A DNA stretch of 64,000 nt from a virus (IMGVR_UViG_3300014838_000020:11390-75389); one strand, 5' to 3'; shown: positions 14,649 through 62,195, counted from the stretch's first letter. Made by a program: numbers and translations. Notes: generated from the letters alone by a model not told the origin.

Positions 14649-16099
14649 TGGCAGTTTTTACTGACTACTTCTTCGCTGTTGGCCCAAATAATAACCAGGC
14701 AGTTTCTAATACATTAATTAATCCAGCGTCAACGGCCACTTTGGTATCAGGATACGGTGGATATACAGGGAACGCTGGGGATATACTACAAACAAATCAA
14801 TTGCGTACTATACAAAGTTTTCAAAGTTTTAATGTAGGTAGCATTGCTACTGATTGGCAGAGTTTTTTAAGTTCAACGGTCACTCTTTTGAGGAGCAACT
14901 CTCCTGCTCAATTGGGACTTACTATTTCTGGTGTTTTCTATACTTCAAACCAGACTAACCCTAATTATGGTATCTATACATTTAGTGGATCGAGCGGGAA
15001 TAGTTATGTTCAAACTACTTTAGGTGGTGGTAATAACTTGTTAACTTCTAGTGAGGCAAACTTCACTACGGGAGGATGGTCAGGCAGTAATGTAACTTCT
15101 GGCACTAGTGTTACAATATCTGGATTAACATCAGTCAATATTCCACTTCTTTCTGATGTATCTTATGGCGCATCATTCGGTGAGTTCCCATATGGTACAT
15201 CAGCACTTGGTGGTTTGGCCATAGAAGGATTAAACATAAATCAGTATGACTATTTAGTAACTGCTTCTGGCACTGGGACAGTCACTATGACTATTAATTA
15301 CTCTTCTACTAGTTATACACAGAAATTTACAATTTCTGGAATCGATAATCTTAATTTTTTAACAAATCAGCCAGATAACACTGATGTAATAAATATATCA
15401 TTAACAACCAGTGGGCAAATTACATATTCACAAGCTGGTTTGTTTAATGGATATACTACTTCGTGGGTATCGTCTTTGCTAACGGATAGTATGAGAATTT
15501 CTACTGTGGCTAGGCTTTTTCTTCCTAATACCAGCACTGGCACATATACACTTTCTCTGTATAGTAATGCTGGTGTTTTATTAGCTGATAAGTTTTTCTC
15601 TGGGTTGCTAACGCAAACATGGATCGACCTTACTGTTGATTATATATTACCTCCCCAAGTTACTAACCAATCGTTTTATGCTGTATTATCTCAAAGTTAC
15701 TCTACGGAAGTATACGAGCTCAGTATGTTTGGGATGTTCTATAATCCACTTTCTTATCAATTTAGTACTGATAACTCTACATGGTATCCGATTACCATCG
15801 GCATTAATGATGCATTTACTGCAATTACTATTGAACAACCAACTCAAAGTTTTTACTTAAAGGTTACTTTCTTACAGGATTACACAACAATCAATGCAAT
15901 ACAAATTGTACCTAAATTTACTCAAACTCCTTTTTATAATTCCACTAATATTAACTTTTTGAGTGACCCAAAAATTAATGAAATCGCTGATAGGATTCCG
16001 GTTCAACTACAACCATTGTTCCAACCTATATCATTGGACTTTCCATTCATCTACTCACAACAAGAGTTAATGAATATAACATCACCGTTTTTGCTGTAG
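14648..16099 (+). CDS. Tail/baseplate structural protein, Ser/Thr/Gly-rich
   Basis: TAATG overlap; beta-rich composition; last structural gene of the + strand block. Confidence 0.55.
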   Translation: MAVFTDYFFAVGPNNNQAVSNTLINPASTATLVSGYGGYTGNAGDILQTNQLRTIQSFQSFNVGSIATDWQSFLSSTVTLLRSNSPAQLGLTISGVFYTSNQTNPNYGIYTFSGSSGNSYVQTTLGGGNNLLTSSEANFTTGGWSGSNVTSGTSVTISGLTSVNIPLLSDVSYGASFGEFPYGTSALGGLAIEGLNINQYDYLVTASGTGTVTMTINYSSTSYTQKFTISGIDNLNFLTNQPDNTDVINISLTTSGQITYSQAGLFNGYTTSWVSSLLTDSMRISTVARLFLPNTSTGTYTLSLYSNAGVLLADKFFSGLLTQTWIDLTVDYILPPQVTNQSFYAVLSQSYSTEVYELSMFGMFYNPLSYQFSTDNSTWYPITIGINDAFTAITIEQPTQSFYLKVTFLQDYTTINAIQIVPKFTQTPFYNSTNINFLSDPKINEIADRIPVQLQPLFQPISLDFPFIYSQQELMNITSPFLL

Positions 16100-16104
16100 T
16101 TAGT

Positions 16105-16923
16105 ATGATTAAACTCTGTGAATGTGGTCTTTGCAATCTAGAGGTTAAACCCAACAATAGGTTCATTAAAGGACATAATCGTAAAAAGTATTTAGTAAGT
16201 AAAAATGAATCCCTTAGTCAGCGTAGGGAAAAATTAAAGAATCTTGGATCTTTAGAAATAAAAGAAGGGATTAAACTTTGTGCTTGTGGCTGTAATGAAA
16301 CAGTTAAACTAGGGAATAAATATATTAATCATCATTCTAATAGGGGAATAATACTATCTAAAAGAAGTAAGGTGATAACACCCAGAATTTGCGTTTGTGG
16401 TTGTAACGAAACATTTATTTCTAAAAGAAGAGAGACTCAATATAAACGAGGGCATTCTAACAGAGGTTTAAAACACACTCCAGAACAAATTGAAAAAACC
16501 CGACAATCTAATATAGGCCGTAAACATCCTCCACGCGCTGAAGAGTTTAAGGAAAGAATGTCAAAAACAACAAAACGAGCTTGGGCTGAAGACAGACTCA
16601 AAGTATCTGGTCTTAGATATTCTTCTTATGAAGTATCAGCTGCTCATTACCTTGAACCTCTTGGATTTATAGCTACTTATAAAGATCAAAGACGAGTTGT
16701 TTGTACAGATAGAACTAGAGTTCCTGATTTTATCAATTACGATACCATGCAAATAGTAGAATTATTTGGGGTTTGGTGGCATAGAGATCGTCCTTTGCCT
16801 AAAGGAAAATCTCATGAGACCCATGGATATATCATAAAGCGTTATAAAGAAGTGGGGTATGCTTGTCGAGTAATATGGATTGAAGAAGAATTCGATGATT
16901 TTATTAAAGAGCTAAATAAGTAA
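16105..16923 (+). CDS. Free-standing homing endonuclease (CxCGC repeats, NUMOD3, Vsr-like/EDxHD nuclease domain)
   Basis: Three CxCG(x)C...GH repeats, KHTPEQIEK NUMOD3 motif, PDF...IVELFGVWWH nuclease motif; paralog of 55736..56572. Confidence 0.75.
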   Translation: MIKLCECGLCNLEVKPNNRFIKGHNRKKYLVSKNESLSQRREKLKNLGSLEIKEGIKLCACGCNETVKLGNKYINHHSNRGIILSKRSKVITPRICVCGCNETFISKRRETQYKRGHSNRGLKHTPEQIEKTRQSNIGRKHPPRAEEFKERMSKTTKRAWAEDRLKVSGLRYSSYEVSAAHYLEPLGFIATYKDQRRVVCTDRTRVPDFINYDTMQIVELFGVWWHRDRPLPKGKSHETHGYIIKRYKEVGYACRVIWIEEEFDDFIKELNK

Positions 16924-16933
16924 ATATATCATC

Positions 16934-17581
16934 TTAGAGATCTAATACAAATTGCGAATTTCCATAATTTGCCTGGTATTTAGTAATATCTAAGTTTCTA
17001 AAGTAGCGTTCATTTCTGTTGACGCCATCTTCCTTGTAAATGCTGGGAGGTCTTTCATTTAAATTTACTTCAAAGAGTTCTGGATGGTAAAGAGCATATC
17101 CTTTTTGTAGGGTATTTTCTGCTTTTGTTGCTATTCTCTTAGCACTGTCTAAGTCTTCATAGTCTGTATTTTTCAACTCTAAAATTTCTTCTTTCTTTGA
17201 CAGCAAGTAACTATATTTGTAGGCACAAATATTCATTGTTCCTGGATCAGAATTAAGCATACACACCACATCTGGTTCTCCTGCTGGAATATCATTTACC
17301 AGTTTACCAAAGTTAGGACCTGCTTTACATGTATCATGTAGTAAGAACCAGTAGTCAGATTCTATTTCATTTTCCACGATATCTATTAAAGCAGTATAGT
17401 CAAAAGAGTTATGTGCTACTCGTGTATGAGTAATTCCTTTGCGAATTTCCCACCATCTTTCGGCGTACCCTCCCTCAAAGATAAAGATATCTTTAGTTTC
17501 TACACTTTGAAGTAGAGAGGGAATAATAACAGGTAAAGTATAAGAACTGAACTTACGTACAGAACTTATTGCTATCTTCAT
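16934..17581 (-). CDS. Putative GT-A fold glycosyltransferase
   Basis: N-terminal beta-alpha 'KIAISS...LPVIIPSL' and 'YWFLLHDTC' DxD-like motif; last gene of the sugar operon. Confidence 0.55.
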   Translation of the reverse strand: MKIAISSVRKFSSYTLPVIIPSLLQSVETKDIFIFEGGYAERWWEIRKGITHTRVAHNSFDYTALIDIVENEIESDYWFLLHDTCKAGPNFGKLVNDIPAGEPDVVCMLNSDPGTMNICAYKYSYLLSKKEEILELKNTDYEDLDSAKRIATKAENTLQKGYALYHPELFEVNLNERPPSIYKEDGVNRNERYFRNLDITKYQANYGNSQFVLDL

Positions 17582-18432
17582 TTTACTAAACTTGTTAGAA
17601 TTTCTTTATAAGAGTCTAAAATATCTGTTGTTTGTAAATAGTCTCTCTGTGTATGGAAAGCATAATGAACGATTAACACATCCCCATAAATAATATTGGG
17701 ACGATTTAAACGTCGTGGAATATCGGAAGAAACTGCAATCTCTTCATTCCAATCTAGTTCAACACCTGCAAGATCTCGTCCAAACCAACAAAGAGAATTG
17801 ATGGATATTCTTTCATACTCAGCAAGTACCCATTCAGGGAAACGATAATCGTCTAATGTATTATTAGATAGTTTATCTAGGAAGTTCTTGTGCTTTTTAA
17901 CAGCCACTTCTCCATTTTCAACTCCATTAATATTTACACAGTCATATGCAATATTTTCTGCAATATTAAGTGCGCGAATTCTTTGGTGGATATGATCACA
18001 GATACTATTATTAATAATATTTGGTAGAACAAATAAATATTCAAGATTTTTAATTCGAAAATTCACCATTTTTTCGATAAAGCCTTCTTCGATATAGATG
18101 ACATCATCATCTAGTCGAACATAAATTGTACTATGGTCTTTGAATCCTTCCCAAAACTTATTCAGTAACAGAGGATTATGTGACTTGCCTTCGAATTCAC
18201 GTTCCGGAAGAGGGAGATGAATTAATCGTTCATCTAGAGTAATTTTATCATACTTTTCCGCTTGTTCATAAAGCCATTTAAGATTTTCTTCATCAGTAGT
18301 ATTGATACAAAATCTAATTTCATCAACATAATCATATTCCCTTAAGATTTGAGGGAGCAGTAATTCCATATACTCTTTTCGACCAGCACCAATAGTGACT
18401 ACAATCTTATATTCCTGTTGCACAGTTATCAT
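17578..18432 (-). CDS. Putative GT-A fold glycosyltransferase
   Basis: 'AGRKEYMELL', 'IYVRLDDDVIYI' DxD motif, 'IVHYAFHTQR' C-terminal His motif. Confidence 0.7.
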   Translation of the reverse strand: MITVQQEYKIVVTIGAGRKEYMELLLPQILREYDYVDEIRFCINTTDEENLKWLYEQAEKYDKITLDERLIHLPLPEREFEGKSHNPLLLNKFWEGFKDHSTIYVRLDDDVIYIEEGFIEKMVNFRIKNLEYLFVLPNIINNSICDHIHQRIRALNIAENIAYDCVNINGVENGEVAVKKHKNFLDKLSNNTLDDYRFPEWVLAEYERISINSLCWFGRDLAGVELDWNEEIAVSSDIPRRLNRPNIIYGDVLIVHYAFHTQRDYLQTTDILDSYKEILTSLVK

Positions 18433-19391
18433 GAAAACAAATCAACCCAAATTAATGCAGCCTCTTTGAACTTCTTAGTGTAACCTTCCGGTTCGCCTTC
18501 GATGACATCAGGTAACTTAGTAATCAATTCTCTATATGTTTCTACTGGAGTTATTTCAGTTAGTTGTATCTTCTGGACTTCTTTCCAGAAATTTTCATTC
18601 ATTTGAAGTCCTGGAGCCTGCTTCTTTAGATTGGTATACACATTAGATTGCTTGCGATGTTCAACTGAAGGATAACCTGAACGAACTGCATAGCCTAGAT
18701 GATCACAAACTTTTTTCGAAAGTACTCCAGCCCAAATGTCATCATATTGATCAAATCCCCAGTCAGGTCCAAAGATCCCAAAGTACATAATTGGAGTAAG
18801 TTCTGCCAACCATGCCAAGTTCATTCCACACATTGGGTAAAAGTTATCTTTGGGTATAGTTTGGGTTTCGTAGAATTGAGTTGGTGAAAACCTCAGACCA
18901 GGATTATGTAGACTAGTAGCGGCATCTAAATCGGGGACGTTACTCCACAGTCCATGACTAATTCCTACTGGAGATTGTTCACGAATGTCATACGGAAATC
19001 CGCGAGTGAACTCAAATTGATTATTCGAAGGGTACCATCCAAGAGTAGTCTTACTCTCTAGATTTTCAATGTGACCTCGTAAAAAATTGGAACCATCAGG
19101 ATAGCAATCATTATCAAGAGTGTAGATGTGTGTAGCTTGTATTTGCCATGCTTTATAATATCCATAAGACCTACAGGCAGAAGACTGAGTAGGAATAATC
19201 CATTCATTCTTGCCTAAGTCCTTCTTGATATCCTTGTGATCATAAATGTATCCATCGAATCCCTTAGGCATTGTCGGTTTATCACCTATATCTTGAATGA
19301 TAATTAATTCAGTAGCCTTTAATTCATCCCACTCTTCTAAAAACTTAAGATGGGGTAAATGATTTGGTATTACAACGATTGGATTAACCAC
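18429..19391 (-). CDS. Reversibly glycosylated polypeptide (RGP)/UDP-arabinopyranose mutase homolog, CAZy GT75
   Basis: Collinear matches to plant RGP/UAM motifs: SACRSYGY, TLDNDC, RGFPYDIRE (autoglycosylated Arg region), SHGLWSNVPDLDA, PMCGMNLAW, YDDIWAG, KVCDHLG, SNVYTNLKK. Confidence 0.9.
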   Translation of the reverse strand: MVNPIVVIPNHLPHLKFLEEWDELKATELIIIQDIGDKPTMPKGFDGYIYDHKDIKKDLGKNEWIIPTQSSACRSYGYYKAWQIQATHIYTLDNDCYPDGSNFLRGHIENLESKTTLGWYPSNNQFEFTRGFPYDIREQSPVGISHGLWSNVPDLDAATSLHNPGLRFSPTQFYETQTIPKDNFYPMCGMNLAWLAELTPIMYFGIFGPDWGFDQYDDIWAGVLSKKVCDHLGYAVRSGYPSVEHRKQSNVYTNLKKQAPGLQMNENFWKEVQKIQLTEITPVETYRELITKLPDVIEGEPEGYTKKFKEAALIWVDLFS

Positions 19392-20227
19392 TCTTTTGTC
19401 CTCTCTAGTCCTTCTTGCCAGTTTATCTTAGGTTGCCAACCATTCACTTTACCTACTGCAATATTATCGTTAGCAAAATGTTGAACATCACCAGGAAGCT
19501 TTTTACCTTCAATGATTCTATCATAATCTAGTGTTTCTAGTAATGTATTAAGAGATAAGATATTCTCTGGGCCACCACCAAAGTCATAATCACTATTCTT
19601 ATATAACTCGAAATTTTGAACTTGATCCATTAATAAATCAATATGGTCATCTATGTAAAGAACATCTCTAGTCTGTGTTCCATCTCCAAAAAGAGTAATA
19701 GTCTTATTTTGCACAGAAGCTTTAATAAACCAAGTGAACCATCCCCCATCTTCTGAACCTTCTTGGTTGTGTCCATAAACACTAGAGGGGCGATTAATGA
19801 TATACTCTAGTCCGTAAAGTTCGTGATACATCTTAATGTATTGCTCGCCAACTAGTTTAGACAATCCATAAGGAGGAATGATTCCATCCTCTCCAGGATA
19901 AACTTTCATGGAAGAATTAAAAATTACAGGGATATTGTATTGCCTCGCAACTTCACAAACATTAAAGGTTCCTATTGCATTATCAATAAAATCTAATTGG
20001 GGATCTCGAAGTGAAATTTGAGTGGAACAATTAGCTCCGAGATGAACAATCATACAAGGGTGATGTTTTTCTACCGCACTCCTCAGTAAGTAATAATCAG
20101 AAGTGGAAGCACCATGCTTCTTATCCATGCCTACAACATTAGGTAGTTTGTTAAGAAGATGGCCACCAATAAATCCTGCACTGCCTGTAACCAGGATTTT
20201 CTTGTTATATAATTTGTCCAAAGTCAT
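19370..20227 (-). CDS. NAD-dependent nucleotide-sugar epimerase (extended SDR, CDP-tyvelose 2-epimerase-like)
   Basis: TGSAGFIG NAD-binding motif, YGLSK catalytic YxxxK, 'EDGGWFTWF' and 'GDGTQTRDVLYIDD' similar to the RfbE subgroup. Confidence 0.85.
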   Translation of the reverse strand: MTLDKLYNKKILVTGSAGFIGGHLLNKLPNVVGMDKKHGASTSDYYLLRSAVEKHHPCMIVHLGANCSTQISLRDPQLDFIDNAIGTFNVCEVARQYNIPVIFNSSMKVYPGEDGIIPPYGLSKLVGEQYIKMYHELYGLEYIINRPSSVYGHNQEGSEDGGWFTWFIKASVQNKTITLFGDGTQTRDVLYIDDHIDLLMDQVQNFELYKNSDYDFGGGPENILSLNTLLETLDYDRIIEGKKLPGDVQHFANDNIAVGKVNGWQPKINWQEGLERTKEWLIQSL

Positions 20228-20235
20228 AATACTAT

Positions 20236-20264
20236 ATTATACTACATGTAATATACATTGTCAA
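20236..20264 (-). promoter_or_regulatory. Consensus promoter for the sugar operon (leaderless)
   Basis: Perfect TTGACA-17 nt-TATAAT on - strand, 8 nt before the ATG at 20227, no Shine-Dalgarno. Confidence 0.85.
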
Positions 20265-20345
20265 ATAGCTTATCTAGTTAATAGTATGATGGCTTGTCAA
20301 AAATGTAGAATATAATGATGAATATTAAAAGAATTACTAAAGTCA

Positions 20346-21089
20346 CTAGTCGCAGCAACTGTAATTTAAGGTCAGTTTGCCATCAACTTCTGTATATTTA
20401 TTAAAAATTTTTAATTGTCTTTCTAATTCCTTAATTTCTGATTCTCTTACTATAATTATTTGGTATTTCTTATATTGATTTAAATATTGAACTTTATAAA
20501 TATTTCCATTACATTTACTATCATCATCACCTTTTACTTCTAAAAATACATTAAATTCTGGTAAATAAAAATCAGGTGTATATGTAGTATTTAATTCAGA
20601 TATTTTAATGCTATTAGGTTCATATTGGTATAGAATCTGATAGCAGTCACAAAGTTGTGCACATCTAGCTTCAATTTTGCTTCTTGTTTGAATATTTTTA
20701 TAAACGGTAGGTATTCCATAGAGTCTACTAACCTTATCCACTGGTCTATTACTAAAAACTCCGTTAGCCCATTCTTCTTTCTTTTTAAGACTTTGTCGTG
20801 AGATATATTCAGGGGTTCTAGATTTTCCAATATTAGCATTCAGTAATATTTTTTTATGCCAATTCGGTAGGATATCTCCTCTATGGTTATGACCATGTAT
20901 ATATTTTGTGGTAGTATATTGTGAAAATACACTTTCACCGCAACCACAAGCACACAGACCACGATATGGTCGTGTTATAATGCGCCCAGATCCACCTGGA
21001 CATTGGTTATGGCCCATTATGTAAACAGTTCTTAAATTTTTAACCGTTAGTTCTTGGCCACATCCACATTTGCATAATCTTGTATTCAT
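20346..21089 (-). CDS. Free-standing PD-(D/E)xK endonuclease with CxCGC repeats
   Basis: Two CxCGCG...GHN repeats; 'RSKIEA...YEP...YTPDFYLPEFNVFLEVKG' nuclease motif. Confidence 0.8.
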   Translation of the reverse strand: MNTRLCKCGCGQELTVKNLRTVYIMGHNQCPGGSGRIITRPYRGLCACGCGESVFSQYTTTKYIHGHNHRGDILPNWHKKILLNANIGKSRTPEYISRQSLKKKEEWANGVFSNRPVDKVSRLYGIPTVYKNIQTRSKIEARCAQLCDCYQILYQYEPNSIKISELNTTYTPDFYLPEFNVFLEVKGDDDSKCNGNIYKVQYLNQYKKYQIIIVRESEIKELERQLKIFNKYTEVDGKLTLNYSCCD

Positions 21090-21229
21090 TACATATCACA
21101 ACAGCTATCACGGTACCCGCAGGTAGGACATTTGTAATGAGCGTGCTCTTGTAGCATCTTTCTGTCGCAGTAAGGACATACTAAATTTGGGGCTAAAGGG
21201 TTATGAGTCTTTTTAGATTCCTCGTCCAC
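21089..21229 (-). CDS. Small 46-aa zinc-ribbon protein (not in ORF track)
   Basis: GTG start; MDEESKKTHNPLAPNLVCPYCDRKMLQEHAHYKCPTCGYRDSCCDM*; two CxxC pairs; TAATG overlap with the endonuclease start. Confidence 0.7.
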   Translation of the reverse strand: MDEESKKTHNPLAPNLVCPYCDRKMLQEHAHYKCPTCGYRDSCCDM

Positions 21230-23978
21230 GTCTGCCTCTAGCTGGATCGTGACCTTGATTATTGTAACTTCTCCAAGTGCTAGAGAATGACTTTAGTTTC
21301 TCCCTACCTGACATTTGGCCAACACCCGCTAGTTCACTCGGAGTGTGACTATGGTATCCACCCATAGCTGCTACTCCAAGAGTGGTCTTTCCTAGTCTGT
21401 CTCGTAGTTCTAGCTTATGGAAATTATTCTCTAGAAGATTATCGACACAGTGCATTATGCAGTCAGCAAGATCTTCTGTACGGACTGGACCGAAACTCAT
21501 CTTCTGAACTTTTCCATTCTTAAGTTGTAAAAATTTTAGTTCTTGCTCTAGAAGGCATGTTTGTTCATCCCCAAATTGATCTTTAAAAGAATGCACCCAA
21601 TTCATACCAATCGCAGATTTAAACCGCTCACATCTCTGCATATTACTTTGTAGCGAAGCCTTCTCTTCCAGAATCATAGCCCTGTGTGCTGGACGCATTG
21701 CCCTAATTCGTTTCTTTAGACTATCGACCGTAACGAAACTACCGTATTGGTCAAAGGTAAATTTACGTATTGACCTAAATCTATCGAGAACATCAATCAG
21801 ATCATCTTCAATCATGGCATAGTCGATTTGGTGTTCTGGAAAATCTTCGGGTTTATAACAATTAATATGGTCAATGATAACATGTGTCCAGGTTTCATTA
21901 TTCTCTGGATCATAAATTTCTTCAGCATGAGCTACCATTACAGCAAAGTTATTGTTGTTCTTGCTGGGGTCAGCATGGCCATAATATATATAACCAAGTT
22001 TGCCTTGGTCCTGTGGAGTTAGAACACGCTCTATACCAGTGCTATCTTTAAATGAACTAAATATTCTTTCAACAATTCTTGGGTTCAAGAATGCATCAGT
22101 TACTTTAGCCCATTGACTTAAGTTCTCAACCCTGAATGTTTCTGGATCTCGCTGTTCCAGTGCTTTCATTTTAGCATCATATAACTGCGGAACCTGTCTT
22201 CTAGTGAAAGGCATTCCTTCACATGCCTCTACATTATCCCAGTCTTCATAAGGGTCCCAACTAGCTAGTTGAATTGTTAACATCGTGGGAAATTCTGGAT
22301 TACCTGCTTTATCAATTTTAATACTATTTTTGTATAGTTCGTGAGCTTTGCCTACTTCGGTGTTATGACTGAACATACCATCGGCGAGTAATGTTTTCGT
22401 AGATGTACCAAGTGCTACAACATCACGATTCCCGGAATCCACAATTGATTCAACAGTAACATACTTAGAAGTTTTATCATAAATTCTTGTACCGTATAAT
22501 CGGCTAGTAAATTTAGCTAATAAACGTCGTGGGCGAATTGATCCAAGTAATTTCATTTTTTCTGATGGACCACCATTAATGGTAATATCAATGCAGTCTC
22601 TACCTTTTTCTTTAATATGAGTACAAAGATCATATCCACGCTCAAGTAGTATTTTAATTAGATTATCTAGTACTGGACCGGGGTTCTGGGCAATACCCAG
22701 TTGTCCTTGCTTAGAATAGGAACCTTCGCCATCATACATACCTGATAAATAGCCTGCATCATATGATTTATCGGTTTCCCAGGTGTCAATGTAACGAATC
22801 CTATCACCTTGCTTGAGGTTTTTGGTCTTAACCCATTTTAGTTCAGGGGAACCAGAGGTTCTTGTTAACCAAAGATGATCCCCAGTGCAAACTACCTCTG
22901 GACCATTTGTTTTTAACTTAAGCGTTGGTGCATTGATGATTGATGTTTCTGTAACGACTGCTTGACGCCAACTTCTGCCGTTGCCCTTACCACCTGGAGC
23001 ATACTCATCGAATCCTACTAATTTATCTCCAACTTTAAGAGACCCTACTGGTGCCCATGTGAGATCTTCTAAAAGAACTGGTGTTTCTGGCACAAGGCAA
23101 TATGGTGATGTAGGAATAAAAATTAAGGCATCTTCACCAAACTGCATTAGTGCTGGGTTGATAGCAGCATATACAGCATGTGATGTTCTTGGTCCATCAG
23201 TTCCATCAACCATGTGGGCAAACTCATCGTATACAACACTGAATACAGTCTTACCACGAGAGGCAGGAGCATTGGAACTAGCTACGTTTCCTCTAATAGA
23301 AGCAATTAGTCTTTGATTTTCTATACCTCTAGCATTTAGAGAAGCAATTTGACGTTTATCGGCTGGTGTTGTTAAAGCAAAAGAATAATCTCTAAGGTCA
23401 GCAATGTATGGCGCAAAGCATTTAGAGTTACTTATGAGGTTAATAAGGTCAGCAAACTGTAGCTCTTTAGCCTGTTTTTCTGCGGTTGCAATACAGGTTA
23501 TTACGATACTTTTACCTCTAGCGACACCATAATATTCCTGTGGATCATCAAGAAGAATTAGTTTCCACAATTGATAAGCTAGAAGAATTGCCCCTAGGTG
23601 GTTCTTTCCACCTCGTCGTCCAATAATTGCAATGATTTCTCCAAAATGGTCATAACCATTGGCTTTTAGCCACTCAACTCTCTTCCAAATATCTGGGTTA
23701 ATCCCTTTAACTATTTCATCAGAGGGATTGAACATTTCAGCCCATTCATTGATGACCCTGAGATCATACTCAGTCATGTTCTCTGTTTCAAGACACATCA
23801 ATCTTAGTAAAGTTTTTTGTCTAGGGTATAACCTATCAGCTCCCAAGAAAGAAGGATGTTCAGCAAATTCTACAATAGAGGGTAAACGAACGTCCTCAGA
23901 GAGAGCGCCCTTCATCATCTCTAAAGGGTTTGTAATATTAGCTAGAGATTTTTTGTTTCTCTGATCAAATGATGCCAT
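21213..23978 (-). CDS. terL: Terminase large subunit (intein-containing)
   Basis: Walker A GRRGGKN, Walker B VVYDEFAH, coupling motif PTSP, RNase H-like nuclease HADPS...FDQY...DLADC. Confidence 0.9.
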   Translation of the reverse strand: MASFDQRNKKSLANITNPLEMMKGALSEDVRLPSIVEFAEHPSFLGADRLYPRQKTLLRLMCLETENMTEYDLRVINEWAEMFNPSDEIVKGINPDIWKRVEWLKANGYDHFGEIIAIIGRRGGKNHLGAILLAYQLWKLILLDDPQEYYGVARGKSIVITCIATAEKQAKELQFADLINLISNSKCFAPYIADLRDYSFALTTPADKRQIASLNARGIENQRLIASIRGNVASSNAPASRGKTVFSVVYDEFAHMVDGTDGPRTSHAVYAAINPALMQFGEDALIFIPTSPYCLVPETPVLLEDLTWAPVGSLKVGDKLVGFDEYAPGGKGNGRSWRQAVVTETSIINAPTLKLKTNGPEVVCTGDHLWLTRTSGSPELKWVKTKNLKQGDRIRYIDTWETDKSYDAGYLSGMYDGEGSYSKQGQLGIAQNPGPVLDNLIKILLERGYDLCTHIKEKGRDCIDITINGGPSEKMKLLGSIRPRRLLAKFTSRLYGTRIYDKTSKYVTVESIVDSGNRDVVALGTSTKTLLADGMFSHNTEVGKAHELYKNSIKIDKAGNPEFPTMLTIQLASWDPYEDWDNVEACEGMPFTRRQVPQLYDAKMKALEQRDPETFRVENLSQWAKVTDAFLNPRIVERIFSSFKDSTGIERVLTPQDQGKLGYIYYGHADPSKNNNNFAVMVAHAEEIYDPENNETWTHVIIDHINCYKPEDFPEHQIDYAMIEDDLIDVLDRFRSIRKFTFDQYGSFVTVDSLKKRIRAMRPAHRAMILEEKASLQSNMQRCERFKSAIGMNWVHSFKDQFGDEQTCLLEQELKFLQLKNGKVQKMSFGPVRTEDLADCIMHCVDNLLENNFHKLELRDRLGKTTLGVAAMGGYHSHTPSELAGVGQMSGREKLKSFSSTWRSYNNQGHDPARGRRGRGI
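22362..23099 (-). mobile_element. Intein (246 aa) in terminase with LAGLIDADG motif
   Basis: Begins CLVPETPV after TSPY; block B TGDHLWLT; YLSGMYDGEGS LAGLIDADG motif; ends FSHN with +1 Thr. Confidence 0.92.
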
Positions 23979-23987
23979 AGTATATAA

Positions 23988-24188
23988 CTAGAGATTTCTA
24001 CCCTGTTTATGCAGTGCTAATACTCTTTTCAAATTTTCTGTAGTTTCTATATCTTCAAAAGGAATAGAACCAGTAACTGGTTTCTTCTTTAGTTCCTTTA
24101 AAGTCTCTGTTAAATATCTGCAATGTCCGCACGCCACCCCAGTACAGGGTCCTATTACCCTAGGTTTAGAACTAGCTTCAAATTCCAT
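23988..24188 (-). CDS. Small hypothetical protein (CxxxxCxxC)
   Basis: ORF tiles with TAATG overlap. Confidence 0.5.
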   Translation of the reverse strand: MEFEASSKPRVIGPCTGVACGHCRYLTETLKELKKKPVTGSIPFEDIETTENLKRVLALHKQGRNL

Positions 24189-43397: not shown

Positions 43398-44429
43398 TTA
43401 CATATCATTAAAGATATCAAAATCCGATTGCTCATCTACAGAGTCCCAAAAATCTAGGGAATGCATTGAACCAATATTGCAAATTCTACTGGGCATGTTA
43501 AATTCTACCATAGAAACTACCTCTTGATCACATGGATCTACAGCAATTGTCGAAGTGTCATTTCTTAACATGCTGATTAGTTCGTTAGCATCATTTATAG
43601 ACTTTGCTATATATATTCTTATATCTCCGTAAAGATTATTGATTTGAAAAGAGTTAACACCTTTTATAACATGAAGATAACGAGATATTTTTTCTTTAGT
43701 AATAAATCGTATTAGATTTGCTTGCTGTACAAAATTTAGTTTTGATCGAAATTCTTCTATTTGTTCTCCATAGACTGAACTGTATATATCACTAATTTTA
43801 GTTAGAATTTCTTGATTTGGTTCCCCAATAAATATATAGAATTTAGGAGATAATGAACCAAGCCCATAAAAATTGAAGAAATCAAAACAAATGTTATCAA
43901 TTAATGTATCTGTTATAGAGTTACTATTGACTACTCCAAAGGATAGTTTATCTTCATGAGTGTGAATTCTACGATGCTTAGTTGCTAATGTCTTATAATA
44001 TTCTATAGTTTCATAATTACCAAAAACTATAATATCTGTTGCATTATCAATTGTATTTCTCCAACTAGAAGATAACTCTACTTCTTGATCAGTGCCTATG
44101 TGTACACTAGTTTTAATTTCATAAGTATTATGATTTTTAATAATATTTTCTATAATTAAAGCTTCATCCAATGATGATGGCTTTATGTCTATAGTATCTG
44201 CACCACTAAGTTGCAGTGCCAAAAATACACTTTTAGAAATTGTTAGTGGTGTACCATCTGATCCTATTAGTACTATTTTTCGTTTGGTTTTATTATTATG
44301 CTGATTAAAGTAAGGTGGTATAAAACTATTACTAATTAATCGTTCATAATCACTTTCTAAAAATTCACCAAATTGACTTAAAATTGATGAAAGATTATTA
44401 TCATTATTAATATAATAATTATTATTCAT
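43398..44429 (-). CDS. LuxC-like acyl-CoA/acyl-protein reductase homolog, catalytic Cys apparently replaced
   Basis: 'DIIVFGNYETI', 'KLSFGVV', 'GLGSLSPK' (family GCxSP), 'SRICNIGSMH...WDSVD'. Confidence 0.65.
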   Translation of the reverse strand: MNNNYYINNDNNLSSILSQFGEFLESDYERLISNSFIPPYFNQHNNKTKRKIVLIGSDGTPLTISKSVFLALQLSGADTIDIKPSSLDEALIIENIIKNHNTYEIKTSVHIGTDQEVELSSSWRNTIDNATDIIVFGNYETIEYYKTLATKHRRIHTHEDKLSFGVVNSNSITDTLIDNICFDFFNFYGLGSLSPKFYIFIGEPNQEILTKISDIYSSVYGEQIEEFRSKLNFVQQANLIRFITKEKISRYLHVIKGVNSFQINNLYGDIRIYIAKSINDANELISMLRNDTSTIAVDPCDQEVVSMVEFNMPSRICNIGSMHSLDFWDSVDEQSDFDIFNDM

Positions 44430-44436
44430 ATTAATC

Positions 44437-54217: not shown

Positions 54218-54260
54218 GATACTATTATACTGCCTTTCTACTAATTGGGTACTACTTGAA

Positions 54261-54990: not shown

Positions 54991-55743
54991 TTATACCTTC
55001 TTAATATATTTAGATAACTTATCGGTATTGTTGCGAATATATTCTGGAAAACTGTCATCAATAGCAACAGTCCTTAATACAAAGCCTCGTTCAAAAACAT
55101 CTTTATTTTCATTCATCTTACGATGGATATCTTTAATAATAAACTCGTTATTATACTCTTGGTGAGCATAAGATTGGATCTTTCTTTCGACCATTTCTTT
55201 GCCACCTAAGAATGACCAATGCCATCCTGCATTAGGCAGAACGTTAGTCATGTATCGCTGACGCAATGTTTCTCCATCAATCCTTTTATAGTTTTCTAGT
55301 GAACATGCTCTAGTGCCAGCCCAAGGTTCTGAGGTATTAACTACATTAAGAAAATACTGAAACATAGTCTGCTCAAACGAGTAAATTTCATCACTATCGA
55401 AATTATCCTTTAGCCAAGCTAGAGCCTTTGGGTCTGGTACTTCATCCAAATCACTAGTTAGTATAATCCAATCGTCATCGACGCCATACTGGTCTAAGTC
55501 AAGAATATAGCCACGCTGATATCTGTCTCGGCCCCATGTATCTAGATGTTCTGGAAATTCAATAACTTCCGTCACAGTGTTGTCTTGATCCGCTACAAAG
55601 AGTTCACGAGGTAACCCACTGAATGTGGTATTAGCTTGCTTTACGATAAATAGATCCACAACGTCTTTAAGGATTTCTCGACGAATATCTAATAAAAACT
55701 TTTCTCCATTATACAAAATAATGTCACAGATTCGCCTAGCCAT
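54991..55743 (-). CDS. Glycosyltransferase family 17 (MGAT3-like)
   Basis: D..LYN.E..LLDIR, TTFSGLPR, RDRYQR, SDLDEVP, AGWHWSFLGG, KIQSYAHQEYN. Confidence 0.85.
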   Translation of the reverse strand: MARRICDIILYNGEKFLLDIRREILKDVVDLFIVKQANTTFSGLPRELFVADQDNTVTEVIEFPEHLDTWGRDRYQRGYILDLDQYGVDDDWIILTSDLDEVPDPKALAWLKDNFDSDEIYSFEQTMFQYFLNVVNTSEPWAGTRACSLENYKRIDGETLRQRYMTNVLPNAGWHWSFLGGKEMVERKIQSYAHQEYNNEFIIKDIHRKMNENKDVFERGFVLRTVAIDDSFPEYIRNNTDKLSKYIKKV

Positions 55744-56572
55744 GATTATTAACTTTCTCTAAAATTTCATTATAGTAGTTGTCGAATTCTTCTTCAATCC
55801 AAACTATTCGGCAATTCCATCCTGCTTCAGCATACCAGGCAATAACCTCTTCTTCGGTTTCATGTCTTTGCCCTTCAGGAAGGATTTGACGACGATGAAA
55901 ATAAGTTCCCCAAAGCTCTACAATTTCTTTAGTATCTTTATTATAAAAGTCTGGAACTTTTCTTCTTTTGTCTTTACCATTTACCCAATAATTTTCTTCA
56001 AGAGTATTTTGAAATCCTAATTTTTCCATCGAAGGAGCTATTTTATACTCATAAGAGCTAGATGTTGTTTTTACGTTATTAAAAACTCCTTCTTGCCATT
56101 CTTGCTTCTTCTTTTCACCAAGTCTTTTTCTACGCTCAGGAGTCCAAGATTTCTTTATACTAGCACGATGTTCGTCGCTAAATTTTTTGCCTTTATGAGC
56201 TTCAGATATTCTTTTTTTTACTTCGTTAGAATGAGGAGGTTGTTTTTTACCTTTAATCTTCTTTGAGATCGCATCTTTTACTTCTTGAGTACGAGGTATG
56301 CCTTTATTCCAAGGAATTCTCCCTAACAGTTTCTTATGTGCTTCCTCAGAAAGGGGTTTACCCTTCTTTGCTTCTGAAATCTTTCTTTTAGTTTCCTCTG
56401 TATGTGGGATTCCTTTAGGCCGTTTAGGTTGATAGTGCCAATAAATGTATTTATTACCAGGCTTAGCATAATCTCCACAACCGCATTCGCATAATTGTTG
56501 TTCATCTTCCATACTATCTAGATCGACATTTAACTGATTGTAGAGTACAATGTCGACTACCTTTTTAGTCAT
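55736..56572 (-). CDS. Free-standing homing endonuclease (CxCGC, multiple NUMOD3, Vsr-like/EDxHD domain)
   Basis: HTEETKRKISEAKKG-type NUMOD3 repeats, PWNKG, PDF...IVELWGTYFH; paralog of 16105..16923; start placed at MTKKVV. Confidence 0.8.
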   Translation of the reverse strand: MTKKVVDIVLYNQLNVDLDSMEDEQQLCECGCGDYAKPGNKYIYWHYQPKRPKGIPHTEETKRKISEAKKGKPLSEEAHKKLLGRIPWNKGIPRTQEVKDAISKKIKGKKQPPHSNEVKKRISEAHKGKKFSDEHRASIKKSWTPERRKRLGEKKKQEWQEGVFNNVKTTSSSYEYKIAPSMEKLGFQNTLEENYWVNGKDKRRKVPDFYNKDTKEIVELWGTYFHRRQILPEGQRHETEEEVIAWYAEAGWNCRIVWIEEEFDNYYNEILEKVNNHG

Positions 56573-56574
56573 TA

Positions 56575-57987
56575 TTACTTCTTCCATTGAATAAAGTTAG
56601 GCTGAACATTATTAGCATTGGCTAGATTTTCGGCAACCTTAGTTCGATTATAAGCCTTCTTAAATACTTCGTTCCACTGAGGCATAATTGACTGCCATGT
56701 TAAGTTAGAAGCCCACTTGTATGCTTCATCTGCTCTCAATAGAGCTTCATCATAATCATCCATAATATCCATAATTATATCTGCTGTTTTCTCAACATTA
56801 ACCAGTGGCCTCATTCGATTGAGGTCATTCGGTCCTTGTACTACCCAATGGCTAGGGGTGTCACCAGAGGGGGCTAAATAGCCCCTGGTGCCATTATCTA
56901 AGATTTCAATGAGGGAAGTGTTGGCTGGAGCCACAACTGGTAGATGGCAGCACATAGCCTCAGTTACAGTTAGTCCCCAACCTTCTCCCCATGCAGTTGT
57001 TAAATATAAATCAACTGCATTGTAAATTTCATTTAATATATTAATTGGAAATCCAGTACCGGGATTAAAGCTACCTGGTTGTGGAATAAGAAAGTCTTGA
57101 CCTGGAATTAGTTTAAGGTTCTTGGCTTGTTCTAGAAGGTCTCCACCAAAATCTTGATGAGCCATATGCAAGTACATTAAAGGATTATAACCTTTATCTT
57201 TTAGATTTCTTAATAGCATCAAAGATCTTGCAGGATCTTTTCTCGGTTGATTTCTATTAATATTAGCAATAATAAATCTATCAGCCAAAGGACCAAAAAA
57301 TTTCTTGCGTAACTCCTTGCGTTGTTCTGGATTTTGAATCCAGAAAAAATCTTTTGGATTAGTTCCATGATAGATAACTTCTACCTTGGATGCAATCTCA
57401 GGCGACCAATTTTCCACTTCTTTCTTTGCATAGTTAGTATACGCAACTGGAAAATCAGCCATCGAGACTGATGCTCTTACCCATTCTTCGGGTGGAGATG
57501 AATCAAAAGGAAAATAATAAACTGTAGTAAATGGTTTATTAATTTTCCTCTGGACTTCAAGAATTTGTTCTACAATTGGTAAAATTACGAAAGTATCTTG
57601 ATAAATAAAAACAATATCATAAGGTCTAGTCTGTAATAACTTTAAGAAAGTTTTAATACCATGAAAATCTGGAGGGCCACCATCCATTGTTGCAGTGTTG
57701 ATTGCAGGCCAAACTTTTCCTGGCCATTCTTTAGGATCTAATGGTTCACTAGTCCAGTTAATACCTACGATTTCTATTTCGTATTCACCAGTAGCATCAA
57801 GGTTTTGTACAATGTTCTTGCCAACTGTAGCAAACCCTGTTGCAGCGCCGTAGTCACCCCAAACTAGTATTCGTTTTTTTTGAGTAGATTGAATAGTAGC
57901 TTTAACTGAGTTCAGTTGTTGAACAATGTTATTTTTTGGCTTTGGTTTAGTATTAACCTTAATAGCTGGTTTAGCGGGAGTTGTCAT
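56575..57987 (-). CDS. GT-B glycosyltransferase (GT4-like)
   Basis: TGFATV, IYHG, NRNQPRKD, EGWGLTVTEAM (E-x7-E). Confidence 0.88.
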   Translation of the reverse strand: MTTPAKPAIKVNTKPKPKNNIVQQLNSVKATIQSTQKKRILVWGDYGAATGFATVGKNIVQNLDATGEYEIEIVGINWTSEPLDPKEWPGKVWPAINTATMDGGPPDFHGIKTFLKLLQTRPYDIVFIYQDTFVILPIVEQILEVQRKINKPFTTVYYFPFDSSPPEEWVRASVSMADFPVAYTNYAKKEVENWSPEIASKVEVIYHGTNPKDFFWIQNPEQRKELRKKFFGPLADRFIIANINRNQPRKDPARSLMLLRNLKDKGYNPLMYLHMAHQDFGGDLLEQAKNLKLIPGQDFLIPQPGSFNPGTGFPINILNEIYNAVDLYLTTAWGEGWGLTVTEAMCCHLPVVAPANTSLIEILDNGTRGYLAPSGDTPSHWVVQGPNDLNRMRPLVNVEKTADIIMDIMDDYDEALLRADEAYKWASNLTWQSIMPQWNEVFKKAYNRTKVAENLANANNVQPNFIQWKK

Positions 57988-60868: not shown

Positions 60869-60881
60869 TTCTTCCTTTTAA

Positions 60882-62180: not shown

Positions 62181-62195
62181 ATTATTTATTTTCCT

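What the first reader, a model, noticed from the sequence alone, without database searches (positions are those of the whole stretch)
16934..20264. Phage operon for furanose-sugar glycosylation built around a plant-type RGP/UDP-arabinopyranose mutase (GT75)
Seen: one perfect leaderless promoter drives four overlapping genes, namely an SDR epimerase, a GT75 mutase and two GT-A proteins. The 320-aa protein matches plant RGP/UAM along its whole length, including the DxD-like DNDC and the RGFPYDIRE segment carrying the self-glycosylated Arg. Established: plant UAMs interconvert UDP-L-Arap and UDP-L-Araf without flavin, unlike bacterial Glf/UGM, and actinobacteria make Araf from decaprenylphosphoryl-arabinose rather than a nucleotide sugar. 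Inference: the phage makes its own NDP-furanose donor (epimerase, then mutase) and uses the two GTs to attach it to virion proteins, DNA or the host surface. I do not know of a described phage pathway of this kind. The operon abuts the tail module.
Basis: partly seen in the sequence, partly recalled or inferred. Interest (0 to 1): 0.92.

Follow-up and report, generated by a model that had tools for sequence, protein, structure and literature searches.

The report
Phage sugar-ring mutase glycosylation operon
An uncultured peat-soil phage, probably of actinobacteria, carries a tightly packed four-gene operon (a sugar-nucleotide redox enzyme, a GT75 enzyme that should turn a six-membered nucleotide-sugar ring into a five-membered one, and two sugar transferases) that most likely decorates the phage's own particle; the sugar and the target are untested.

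Summary
Four overlapping minus-strand genes follow the only perfect TTGACA-17-TATAAT site in the window, 8 nt before the first ATG. They encode an extended SDR, a full-length GT75/RGP protein (Pfam 3e-50) and two proteins that AlphaFold2 and fold search place in the GT-A fold.

The GT75 protein is not plant-type. It belongs to a monophyletic clade of at least 121 sequences (support 0.999), found only on viral-like contigs of 34-68% GC, several of which encode WhiB. The clade keeps the catalytic Arg, the Asp bases and the Mn-binding His. It replaces the substrate-binding Arg of MtdL and active plant enzymes with Gln, gains an Arg next to the His, and has D-N/T-D in place of DDD.

An SDR gene lies directly upstream in 13 of 13 informative loci, but it comes in three types: TyvE-related here, RmlB-type 4,6-dehydratase, and RmlD-like. 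UDP-L-arabinofuranose is therefore only one candidate, and a 6-deoxyhexose or galactose furanose is equally plausible.

In terminal-repeat-bounded relatives the cassette sits between the capsid and connector genes, and no thymidylate-synthase-family gene is present. This favours virion glycosylation over DNA modification.

This scan has already noted phage GT75 genes in at least 40 other genomes.

The parts
20236..20264 (-). Consensus sigma-70-type promoter (TTGACA, 17 nt, TATAAT). The -10 hexamer ends 8 nt before the SDR start codon, so the mRNA is predicted to be leaderless or nearly so.
   Evidence: It is the only 12/12 match in the window. No transcript start was measured.
19370..20227 (-). 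Extended SDR NDP-sugar epimerase/reductase (285 aa). It has GxxGxxG, and Ser/Tyr120/Lys124. It lacks the TDE dehydratase signature. It is related to TyvE (SDR1E) but has Met at TyvE Asn125 and Gly at Gln205.
   Evidence: Pfam Epimerase 1.7e-35. phrog_540 nucleotide-sugar epimerase 8.6e-52. PDB 9rl0 TaTyvE 2.4e-38 and Thermotoga GalE 5.4e-29. Residue comparison with PMC13098431. Alignment A4.
18429..19391 (-). GT75/RGP-family protein (320 aa), predicted Mn-dependent NDP-pyranose/furanose mutase of an actinophage-specific subfamily. Retained residues: D93, D95, R74, R130, D154, D218, H245. Clade-specific residues: N94, Q215, R246, Q248.
   Evidence: PF03214 3e-50. PDB 8cid 3.2e-20 and MtdL 7yua 1.4e-12. 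Residue mapping against PMC9937993. Column statistics. Clade support 0.999.
17578..18432 (-). Soluble GT-A fold glycosyltransferase (284 aa) with invariant DDD108-110, E230/E231 and H256. It belongs to an uncharacterised family with no Pfam model.
   Evidence: phrog_4447 5.9e-7. Alignment A2. AF2 pLDDT 95.5. Foldseek and VIA-align Z 14.5 to ColGalT1, with LH3, RmlT, SpsA and ppGalNAc-T within 1 Z unit. ESM Atlas nearest clusters are mainly viral GTs.
16934..17581 (-). Small GT-A fold protein (215 aa) with invariant H82-D83-T84 where GT-A enzymes have DXD. Predicted second glycosyltransferase.
   Evidence: No Pfam, PHROG or NCBIfam hit. Alignment A3. AF2 pLDDT 90.7. VIA-align Z 11.3 to TarP, B4GALNT1 and RmlT. 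ESM Atlas: viral clusters, TM about 0.8.
20346..21089 (-). Endonuclease (homing or Holliday-junction-resolvase-like) directly upstream of the operon's promoter. It is context and may be a mobility element.
   Evidence: PHROG endonuclease/resolvase families at about 1e-11. HNH endonucleases also flank the cassette in L008.
54991..57987 (-). Second glycosyltransferase locus of the same phage: a GT17-like protein, a NUMOD3 homing endonuclease and a GT4. It may act on the same glycan.
   Evidence: Pfam Glyco_transf_17 2e-18, NUMOD3 4e-10, Glycos_transf_1 3.8e-10.

Best explanation
The four genes form one translationally coupled operon with its own consensus promoter. The phage is an uncultured peat/permafrost myovirus that encodes WhiB and has a terminase and replication module like those of Bxz1/cluster C mycobacteriophages.

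Proposed mechanism, each step inferred unless marked otherwise:
(1) The phage encodes no sugar-1-phosphate nucleotidyltransferase, so it draws on a host NDP-sugar pool.
(2) The SDR (Ser/Tyr/Lys triad, no dehydratase TDE motif) epimerises or reduces that NDP-sugar into a configuration whose C4-OH can attack C1.
(3) The GT75 enzyme uses Mn2+ (D95, H245), the nucleophilic Arg130 and the base Asp218 to open the pyranose and close it again as a furanose. This is the mechanism proposed for MtdL.
(4) The two soluble GT-A transferases pass this sugar, and perhaps a second one, to an acceptor in the cytoplasm. The most likely acceptor is a virion protein made late in infection, giving a glycan-coated particle as in glycosylated mycobacteriophages.

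The donor is probably a galacto-configured hexose, 6-deoxyhexose or pentose. A dTDP-linked 6-deoxyhexose is a serious candidate. The family assignments, motifs, folds and synteny are shown here; the activities, the sugar and the acceptor are not.
For: Family and residues:
- PF03214 at 3e-50, full length.
- The clade keeps the equivalents of MtdL D109, D111, R90, R159, D195, D260 and H287 in 121 of 121 sequences. All of these are needed for mutase activity or Mn binding in MtdL (PMC9937993).
- Homologues at about 60% identity persist across contigs of 34-68% GC.

Coupling to an SDR:
- An SDR gene abuts the GT75 gene in 13 of 13 loci where the upstream side is present.
- The SDR-GT75-GT284-GT215 order recurs in L003, SDR-GT75-GT215 in L002, and SDR-GT75 in L012.
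- Matching contig lengths suggest that several other metagenomic contigs also hold the GT75 gene with one or both GT genes.

GT folds.

Donor supply: no NTP_transferase or RmlC gene in G000 or in G002-G005.

Virion target:
- In the phages bounded by terminal repeats (G003-G005, about 48-50 kb, WhiB-positive) the cassette lies between portal-protease-major capsid and the head-tail adaptor and tail terminator. It is accompanied there by a GT4, a LicD-like gene and TylF-type sugar O-methyltransferases.
- Here it lies between the baseplate/tail-fibre genes and the terminase.
- The same phage has a second locus with GT17-like and GT4 genes.

Against DNA as target:
- No thymidylate-synthase-family gene in G000 or in the repeat-bounded relatives.
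- No T4 BGT or AGT gene.
- The replication module holds no base-modification genes.

dTDP hint: the middle DxD residue, which binds the ribose 2'-OH in MtdL, is Asn or Thr in the clade and Asp in 127 of 134 other GT75 sequences. It co-varies with the SDR type, and the partner SDRs include RmlB-type (STDEVYG) and RmlD-like enzymes.
Against: - The position of MtdL Arg257 is Gln in 119 of 121 clade members and Arg in 131 of 134 other GT75 sequences. Arg257 binds the beta-phosphate and the sugar, R257K inactivates MtdL, and it is one of two active-site residues (with the Mn-binding His287) not conserved in the inactive plant AtRGP5. The clade-specific Arg246 may compensate, but that was not tested structurally.
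- The SDR lacks TyvE's essential Asn125, and its regiochemistry is unknown.
- An RmlB-type partner yields a 4-keto sugar, which cannot ring-contract without a reductase, and none was identified in those phages.
- No glycan, glycoprotein or enzyme activity has been measured for any member, and no cultured phage in GenBank carries the gene.
- Only 48% of this genome is held, so genes for a modified DNA base could lie in the missing half.
- The virion-target argument rests on gene position and on analogy.
Confidence: 0.5

Rival explanations
1. The operon makes a furanose donor for hypermodification of the phage's own DNA, with the sugar attached to a hydroxylated or hydroxymethylated pyrimidine, as an anti-restriction device.
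For: Phage DNA that carries furanoses is real: D-Araf chains on 5-hydroxycytosine in RB69 and DLP3, and a phage flavin UDP-Galp mutase next to DNA glycosylation genes in Pootjesviridae (PMC13326640). Earlier unchecked notes of this scan place other phage GT75 genes beside T4-like hmC and BGT genes. Half of this genome is not held.
Against: The 75-kb contig has no thymidylate-synthase-family (PF00303) or ThyX gene, and the three repeat-bounded relatives have no PF00303 gene. There is no BGT or AGT. The replication module (RecA, DnaE, primase, DnaB, loader, 5'-3' exonuclease) has no base-modification genes. The two transferases are GT-A fold, unlike the GT-B fold of T4 BGT and AGT. The cassette lies with structural and packaging genes, not with nucleotide metabolism.
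Confidence: 0.1
2. The operon remodels the host cell envelope during infection (cell-wall glycan, teichoic-acid-like polymer or lipid-linked precursor), for example to block superinfection or aid release. This is an 'auxiliary metabolic gene' reading.
For: Soil virus surveys label viral GT75 as a cell-wall biosynthesis AMG (PMC11032446, PMC12016548). The fold neighbours of both GTs include the wall-teichoic-acid glycosyltransferases TarP, TarS and RmlT. Furanoses (Galf, Araf) are typical of actinobacterial walls (established knowledge).
Against: Both GTs look soluble, and the operon holds no membrane GT, flippase or polyprenyl-phosphate transferase. The clade motifs were found in only 2 of 32 million genome contigs, both short MAG contigs, so there is no sign of prophage or seroconversion biology. 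In relatives the cassette is embedded between capsid and connector genes. The AMG papers give a label only.
Confidence: 0.18
3. The phage GT75 protein is not a mutase. With the substrate-binding Arg replaced, it may only glycosylate its own Arg130 or another protein's Arg (the RGP or primer activity), or it may bind a different ligand.
For: Gln replaces the MtdL Arg257 equivalent throughout the clade. R257K abolishes substrate binding in MtdL, and Arg257 (with the Mn-binding His287) is not conserved in the inactive plant AtRGP5, which showed no detectable UDP binding (PMC9937993). GT75 enzymes are Arg glycosyltransferases by mechanism.
Against: Unlike AtRGP5, the clade keeps the Mn-binding His245 (121 of 121) together with R130, D154, D218, D93 and D95. 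It gains an invariant Arg246 in the adjacent phosphate-binding loop, which looks like a relocated Arg rather than a lost one. The constant coupling to an NDP-sugar SDR fits a donor-making role.
Confidence: 0.12
4. One reading: UDP-xylose is 4-epimerised to UDP-L-arabinopyranose, and the mutase then makes UDP-L-arabinofuranose.
For: Plant GT75 enzymes do this. At several positions the phage protein resembles plant enzymes rather than MtdL: Pro9, Ser71, and Gly189 followed by a hydrophobic residue and Asn.
Against: The SDR's best relatives are TyvE-family enzymes, not UDP-xylose or UDP-glucose 4-epimerases. No UDP-glucose dehydrogenase or UDP-xylose synthase was found among the genes annotated here. 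Sister phages pair the same GT75 clade with RmlB-type or RmlD-like enzymes of 6-deoxyhexose pathways. The clade has Ser or Thr where UDP-using plant enzymes have Asp (MtdL Ser86 position).
Confidence: 0.1

Closest known systems
MtdL (A201A pathway, Marinactinospora thermotolerans) and Hyg20 (hygromycin A): bacterial GT75 GDP-L-galactose/GDP-L-fucose pyranose-furanose mutases (PMC9937993)
   Same: Same Pfam/CAZy family. Same DxD first and third Asp, nucleophilic Arg, two Asp bases and Mn-binding His. As with MtdL, which acts on the GDP-L-galactose made by an epimerase, the gene is paired with an SDR-type NDP-sugar enzyme.
   Different: Similarity is low (phmmer 1.4e-12, residues 65-298 only). 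Arg257 is Gln, Asp110 is Asn, Asp87 is Ser and Gln229 is Met. There is an extra Arg after the Mn-binding His. The gene is viral, not part of an antibiotic gene cluster. The nucleotide and the sugar are unknown.
Plant UDP-L-arabinopyranose mutases / reversibly glycosylated polypeptides (class 1 active; class 2, e.g. PDB 8cid)
   Same: Full-length match to the RGP profile. Plant-like Pro9, Ser71 and the H-x-K-x-S-N loop. It is the best solved-structure hit (3.2e-20).
   Different: It does not fall near plants: at least 150 metagenomic clusters score 6e-40 or better. It lacks the Arg that active plant enzymes share with MtdL. It has Ser at the position of the Asp linked to UDP selectivity. It is prokaryotic-viral and lies in an operon.
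Virion glycosylation of mycobacteriophages (Che8, Corndog, Myrna; Freeman et al. 2023, cited in PMC12582341; details from my own knowledge because the paper is not held)
   Same: An actinophage with several phage-encoded GTs, and in relatives sugar O-methyltransferases, placed in or beside the structural genes. The terminase is 38% identical to those of cluster C mycobacteriophages.
   Different: No GT75 gene occurs in any GenBank actinophage. This phage adds its own donor-remodelling enzymes (SDR plus mutase). No glycan has been observed.
E. coli O52 Fcf1/Fcf2 route to dTDP-D-fucofuranose, and flavin UDP-galactopyranose mutase (Glf), including the phage-encoded UGM of Pootjesviridae (PMC13326640)
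   Same: Same logic: an SDR step followed by ring contraction of an NDP-sugar to give a furanosyl donor. The RmlD-like and RmlB-type partners in sister phages fit a dTDP-6-deoxyhexose route.
   Different: Those mutases are flavoenzymes unrelated to GT75. The phage UGM is linked to DNA glycosylation genes, which are absent here.
CDP-tyvelose 2-epimerase family (SDR1E; TaTyvE, PDB 9rl0, PMC13098431)
   Same: It is the best solved relative of the SDR (2.4e-38). The two share the C-terminal substrate-domain motifs, including the G-W loop.
   Different: Asn125 of the TNK segment is Met (N125A kills TaTyvE), Gln205 is Gly and the VAM segment is CST. The N-terminal domain is about 50 residues shorter overall. 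So the SDR is not shown to be a 2-epimerase.

Membership tests
GT75 / Pfam RGP (PF03214) | Profile match above the curated cut-off over the whole domain | tested here: met
   171.8 bits against a cut-off of 23.8, E 3e-50, profile positions 8-334 of 342. Repeated on the contig.
GT75 / Pfam RGP (PF03214) | DxD motif whose third Asp binds Mn2+ and whose first Asp binds the sugar (MtdL D109, D111) | tested here: met
   D93 and D95 are invariant in 121 of 121 clade members. The middle residue is Asn or Thr, against Asp in 127 of 134 other GT75 sequences.
GT75 / Pfam RGP (PF03214) | Conserved self-glycosylated, nucleophilic Arg (MtdL R159, rice UAM R158) | tested here: met
   R130 in TRGFPY aligns to it and is invariant.
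GT75 / Pfam RGP (PF03214) | General-base Asp260, Asp195 and Mn-binding His287 | tested here: met
   D218, D154 and H245 are invariant.
GT75 / Pfam RGP (PF03214) | Arg that binds the beta-phosphate and the sugar (MtdL R257; conserved in active plant UAMs) | tested here: not met
   Q215 in 119 of 121 clade members, against Arg in 131 of 134 other GT75 sequences. The clade has an extra R246 (120 of 121) in the neighbouring loop. Whether R246 compensates was not tested.
GT75 / Pfam RGP (PF03214) | NDP-pyranose/furanose mutase activity with a divalent cation | not testable with these tools
   Needs an enzyme assay.
Plant UAM/RGP clade | Groups with plant sequences rather than with prokaryotic or viral ones | tested here: inconclusive
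   No labelled plant sequences could be brought into a tree. Indirect evidence: at least 150 metagenomic clusters score 6e-40 or better, a solved plant RGP scores 3.2e-20, and the clade is monophyletic with metagenomic sisters.
CDP-tyvelose 2-epimerase family (SDR1E) | TNK segment with the essential Asn125, and the Gly197-Trp207 loop with Gln205 | tested here: not met
   The aligned residues are S-M-K, and Gly stands at the Gln205 position (against PMC13098431). Overall this is still the best PDB hit (2.4e-38).
Extended SDR NDP-sugar epimerase/reductase (not a dehydratase) | GxxGxxG, the Ser/Thr-Tyr-Lys triad, and absence of the TDE motif of 4,6-dehydratases | tested here: met
   GSAGFIGG, and Y120/K124 invariant in A4. 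The window protein has NSSMKVY where the sister phages' RmlB-type SDRs have STDEVYG.
GT-A fold glycosyltransferases | Rossmann-like GT-A fold with a DXD motif after strand beta-4 | tested here: met
   284-aa protein: Z 14.5, rmsd 4.0, 228 residues aligned, DDD108-110 invariant. 215-aa protein: Z 11.3, rmsd 3.3, 163 residues aligned, but with H-D-T in place of DXD.
Phage DNA glycosylation systems (T4 hmC-glucose; RB69/DLP3 5hoC-arabinose) | A thymidylate-synthase-family pyrimidine hydroxymethylase or hydroxylase together with a DNA glycosyltransferase | tested here: not met
   PF00303, PF02511, PF09198 and PF11440 are absent from the 75-kb contig, and PF00303 is absent from three repeat-bounded relatives. 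The PF09198 search had no positive control. Caveat: 52% of this genome is not held.
Actinophage virion glycosylation | Glycan detected on capsid or tail proteins and dependent on phage GTs | not testable with these tools
   Only gene position supports it.

The most novel reading that the evidence does not exclude
This actinophage-specific GT75 subfamily, with its relocated substrate-binding Arg and its D-N/T-D motif, would be a flavin-independent mutase for a nucleotide-sugar class not yet known for GT75. One example is a dTDP-linked 6-deoxyhexose giving a fucofuranose-type donor. Environmental actinophages across the whole GC range would then use it to coat their capsids and tails with a furanose glycan that is O-methylated in some lineages.
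Probability: 0.3. Interest if true: 0.78.

Novelty: new variant of a known kind. Interest (0 to 1): 0.62.

Why it matters
Only plant GT75 mutases and two bacterial ones from antibiotic pathways have been characterised. The clade described here has at least 121 sequences at 55% identity or more and was found only on viral-like contigs. It has a remodelled substrate site and is always coupled to an NDP-sugar SDR. If it is active, it would widen the known substrate range of metal-dependent ring contraction. It would also give an enzymatic route to scarce NDP-furanoses, and it would show that uncultured soil and peat actinophages make their own unusual sugar donors for particle decoration. Such decoration bears on phage stability, adsorption and immune recognition. 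The enzymology is directly testable with recombinant proteins even though no host is in culture.

Tried and rejected
The gene neighbourhoods of most of the 386 homologues could therefore not be read. Synteny rests on 12 IMG/VR loci, 2 MAG contigs and matching contig lengths.
- Megablast of the region against GenBank phages found nothing. tblastn of the GT75 protein found one unannotated 595-kb uncultured phage at 36% identity.
- A labelled tree with plant, algal, archaeal and characterised bacterial GT75 sequences could not be built.
- The genome-contig scan with the clade motifs gave only two short MAG contigs, labelled Peribacteria and Chloroflexota. These are probably mis-binned phage DNA, so they give no host clue.
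- Freeman et al. 2023 is not held, so the comparison with known glycosylated phages rests on memory.
- Peat metatranscriptome contigs at 99% identity or more cover parts of all four genes in four runs. Contigs from RNA libraries cannot exclude carried-over DNA and show no transcript ends, so this is not counted as proof of expression.
- ESM Atlas searches only showed that both GTs fall in mainly viral GT clusters.
- The top fold hits of the 284-aa GT include protein O-glycosyltransferases (ColGalT1, LH3, ppGalNAc-T). They are tied within 1 Z unit with teichoic-acid and polysaccharide GTs, so no acceptor can be read from them.
- No third structure job was available to model the GT75 protein and check whether Arg246 reaches the phosphate site.
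- The count of perfect promoters (1 found, 0.14 expected, 12 of 100 shuffles with at least one) is not significant on its own.

Full report
**What is there**

The window is bases 11390-75389 of a 75,389-bp IMG/VR viral contig that CheckV rates 48% complete. It has about 36% GC throughout, including the region of interest.

Four minus-strand ORFs fill 16934-20227. They encode proteins of 285, 320, 284 and 215 aa and overlap by 22, 4 and 4 nt, so they are probably translationally coupled.

Directly upstream lies TTGACA-17-TATAAT at 20264-20236. It is the only 12/12 consensus match in the window. Its -10 hexamer ends 8 nt before the ATG, and those 8 nt hold no purine-rich ribosome-binding site. 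A leaderless or nearly leaderless mRNA is a reasonable reading, but it is not shown.

**The phage**

- The plus-strand genes that end at 16923 encode tape measure, baseplate and minor-tail proteins, including lectin-domain proteins.
- Upstream on the minus strand are an endonuclease and a 921-aa terminase. The terminase is 38% identical to those of cluster C (Bxz1-like, about 155 kb) mycobacteriophages.
- The contig also encodes a WhiB protein and a RecA/DnaE/primase/DnaB/loader/5'-3' exonuclease module.
- WhiB marks Actinomycetota and their phages, so the host is probably an actinobacterium. This is an inference.
- Nearly identical DNA occurs in peat and permafrost metagenomes from 16 studies.

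**The four proteins**

*SDR (285 aa).* It matches Pfam Epimerase at 1.7e-35 and phrog_540 (nucleotide-sugar epimerase) at 8.6e-52.
- Its best solved relative is the CDP-tyvelose 2-epimerase of Thermodesulfatator (9rl0, 2.4e-38), followed by UDP-glucose 4-epimerases.
- It has GxxGxxG and the Tyr120/Lys124 pair. It has NSSMKVY where 4,6-dehydratases have STDEVYG, so it is an epimerase or reductase and not a dehydratase.
- It has Met at TyvE's essential Asn125 and Gly at Gln205 (PMC13098431). It cannot be called a 2-epimerase, and its regiochemistry is open.

*GT75 protein (320 aa).* It matches Pfam RGP at 3e-50 over nearly the whole profile.

*The two downstream proteins.* Neither has a Pfam or NCBIfam hit.
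- With alignments of 45 and 39 homologues, AlphaFold2 gave confident models (pLDDT 95.5 and 90.7).
- Foldseek and VIA-align place both among GT-A glycosyltransferases. The 284-aa protein reaches Z 14.5 over 228 aligned residues. The 215-aa protein reaches Z 11.3 over 163.
- The 284-aa protein has an invariant DDD and a C-terminal His.
- The 215-aa protein has an invariant His-Asp-Thr at the DXD position.

**What kind of GT75 this is**

The word-index search (search for homologous proteins, 5.8 billion clustered proteins) gave 386 homologues; the 120 best listed are 54-88% identical. The exhaustive search of 50%-identity clusters found 1,338 related clusters, 290 of them at 1e-30 or better.

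A FastTree of 255 sequences makes the close homologues one clade with support 0.999. The clade has these properties:
- Scanning one genome from each of 185,579 prokaryotic species for two clade motifs gave only two hits. Both lie on short MAG contigs of 39.9 and 9.0 kb.
- IMG/VR gave 12 viral loci.
- The loci span 34-68% GC.
- Three of them lie on genomes of about 48-50 kb bounded by direct terminal repeats, and these genomes encode WhiB.
- Among GenBank phages, only one uncultured 595-kb phage has a homologue, at 36% identity.

So this is a virus-borne clade, largely of actinophages, and it is absent from cultured phages. It is not specifically plant-like. The best solved plant protein scores 3.2e-20 and MtdL scores 1.4e-12, while at least 150 metagenomic clusters score 6e-40 or better.

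**Active site**

I mapped the residues that Du et al. (PMC9937993) showed to matter in MtdL, using the HMMER alignment and a 255-sequence alignment.

Residues retained in all 121 clade members:
- D93 and D95 (MtdL D109 and D111, the latter binding Mn)
- R74 (R90)
- R130 (R159, the nucleophilic, self-glycosylated Arg)
- D154 (D195)
- D218 (D260, the proposed general base)
- H245 (H287, binding Mn)

Residues changed throughout the clade:
- The Arg257 position is Gln in 119 of 121 members, against Arg in 131 of 134 other GT75 sequences.
- The residue after the Mn-binding His is Arg in 120 of 121 members and is variable elsewhere.
- The middle DxD residue is Asn or Thr, against Asp in 127 of 134.
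- Ala is replaced by Gln248.
- There is a two-residue insertion after Pro9.

In MtdL, Arg257 binds the beta-phosphate and the sugar, and R257K abolishes binding. Asp110 binds the ribose 2'-OH.

I read the loss at 215 together with the gain at 246 as a relocated phosphate-binding Arg. I read the loss of the ribose-binding carboxylate as compatible with a 2'-deoxynucleotide (dTDP) donor.

**Synteny and the likely sugar**

In all 13 loci where the upstream side is present, an SDR gene abuts the GT75 gene. The SDR is of three kinds:
- the TyvE-related kind, here and in the low-GC loci L002, L003 and L012;
- an RmlB-type NDP-hexose 4,6-dehydratase with STDEVYG, in eight loci of about 66% GC;
- a short RmlD-like reductase, in L010 and L015.

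The middle DxD residue follows the partner: Thr with RmlB-type, Asn with the other two. This rests on few, related loci.

None of the five phage records searched encodes a sugar-1-phosphate nucleotidyltransferase or an RmlC, so the starting NDP-sugar must come from the host.

All GT75 substrates known so far are galacto-configured: L-Ara, D-Gal, L-Fuc and L-Gal (PMC9937993). Together these facts make an NDP-furanose donor likely. They leave Galf, a 6-deoxyhexofuranose or Araf all possible.

**The likely target**

L003 repeats the full order SDR-GT75-GT284-GT215, and L002 has SDR-GT75-GT215.

In the repeat-bounded high-GC phages the gene order is as follows:
1. portal, protease, major capsid protein
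2. GT4, an unknown gene, a LicD-like gene, an HNH endonuclease
3. RmlB-type SDR, GT75
4. a TylF-type O-methyltransferase and a second methyltransferase
5. further on, the head-tail adaptor and tail terminator

A sugar-remodelling and methylating island inside the structural operon is how glycosylated mycobacteriophages such as Corndog are organised. That comparison is from my own knowledge, because Freeman et al. 2023 is only cited in PMC12582341 and is not held.

In this window the operon lies between the tail genes and the terminase. A second locus carries GT17-like and GT4 genes.

Against DNA as the target:
- No thymidylate-synthase-family gene in the contig or in the three repeat-bounded relatives.
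- No T4-type DNA glucosyltransferase.
- No modification genes in the replication module.

The caveat is that half of this genome is missing, and that phage DNA carrying furanoses does exist (PMC13326640).

Against host-envelope remodelling: the GTs look soluble, the operon has no membrane or flippase component, and there is no sign of prophages.

**Literature and earlier notes**

No paper in the library links UDP-arabinopyranose mutase or RGP to phages, apart from incidental hits. Two soil virus studies list GT75 as a viral AMG by CAZy label only.

Earlier notes of this scan report phage GT75 genes in at least 40 other genomes. Some lie beside capsid genes and some beside hmC and BGT-like genes. 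Those notes are unchecked, but they show that this finding is not unique within the scan.

**Verdict**

The best reading is a phage operon that remodels a host NDP-sugar (SDR, then GT75 ring contraction) and transfers it with two GT-A enzymes, most likely to virion proteins. My confidence is about 0.8 that these are NDP-sugar remodelling and glycosyl-transfer enzymes, about 0.6 for a furanose donor and about 0.5 for the virion as target.

It is a new variant of known kinds: GT75 mutases and actinophage glycosylation. Its active site is distinctive and specific to the clade. Interest 0.62.

Noticed in passing
window 54991-57987 (-): A second glycosyltransferase locus: a GT17-like protein (PF04724, 2e-18), then a NUMOD3 homing-endonuclease-like ORF, then a GT4 (Glycos_transf_1, 3.8e-10; also GT4-conflict, 1.9e-7). 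With the operon studied here, the phage has at least four GTs.
   Followed up: partly
window 20346-21089 (-); L008 6495-6983 and 11067-11510: Homing or HNH-type endonuclease genes sit directly beside the SDR-GT75 cassette, both in this phage and in the unrelated high-GC phages. They may help the cassette move between phage genomes.
   Followed up: no
GT75 residue 94 (window about 19110-19112) and loci L002-L016: The middle residue of the DxD motif tracks the type of SDR encoded upstream. It is Thr with RmlB-type dehydratases and Asn with the TyvE-related or RmlD-like SDRs. The sample is 14 loci that are not phylogenetically independent.
   Followed up: partly
window 21213-23978 (-): The terminase large subunit is 921 aa. 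It has a weak Intein_splicing hit (E 0.0067, residues 350-539), but cluster C mycobacteriophage terminases align over residues 6-855 in one piece, so the extra length may be a family trait and not an intein.
   Followed up: no
window 43398-45465 (-): A LuxE-like acyl-protein synthetase homologue (PF04443, 4.2e-10) lies next to a 343-aa ORF with no Pfam hit, between the 5'-3' exonuclease and the replication genes. This is unusual for a phage.
   Followed up: no
window 59453-62483 (-): A MoxR-like AAA ATPase (AAA_3/AAA_5), a DUF2201 putative metallopeptidase and a WhiB gene lie in a row. Elsewhere in the window are an RNA ligase (50061-51164) and a STAND/NACHT-like ATPase (53063-54268).
   Followed up: no
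window 16000-24000: The same sequence (97-100% of sampled words) recurs in peat and permafrost metagenomes from several studies between 2018 and 2025. Short contigs at 99% identity or more also occur in four peat metatranscriptome runs. The phage seems to be a persistent member of peat communities.
   Followed up: partly
L008 5896-6420 and 8882-10182: The high-GC relatives add a LicD-family gene and two methyltransferases, one of them TylF-type (sugar O-methylation), to the SDR-GT75 core. This suggests a methylated glycan, possibly linked through phosphate, in those phages.
   Followed up: partly
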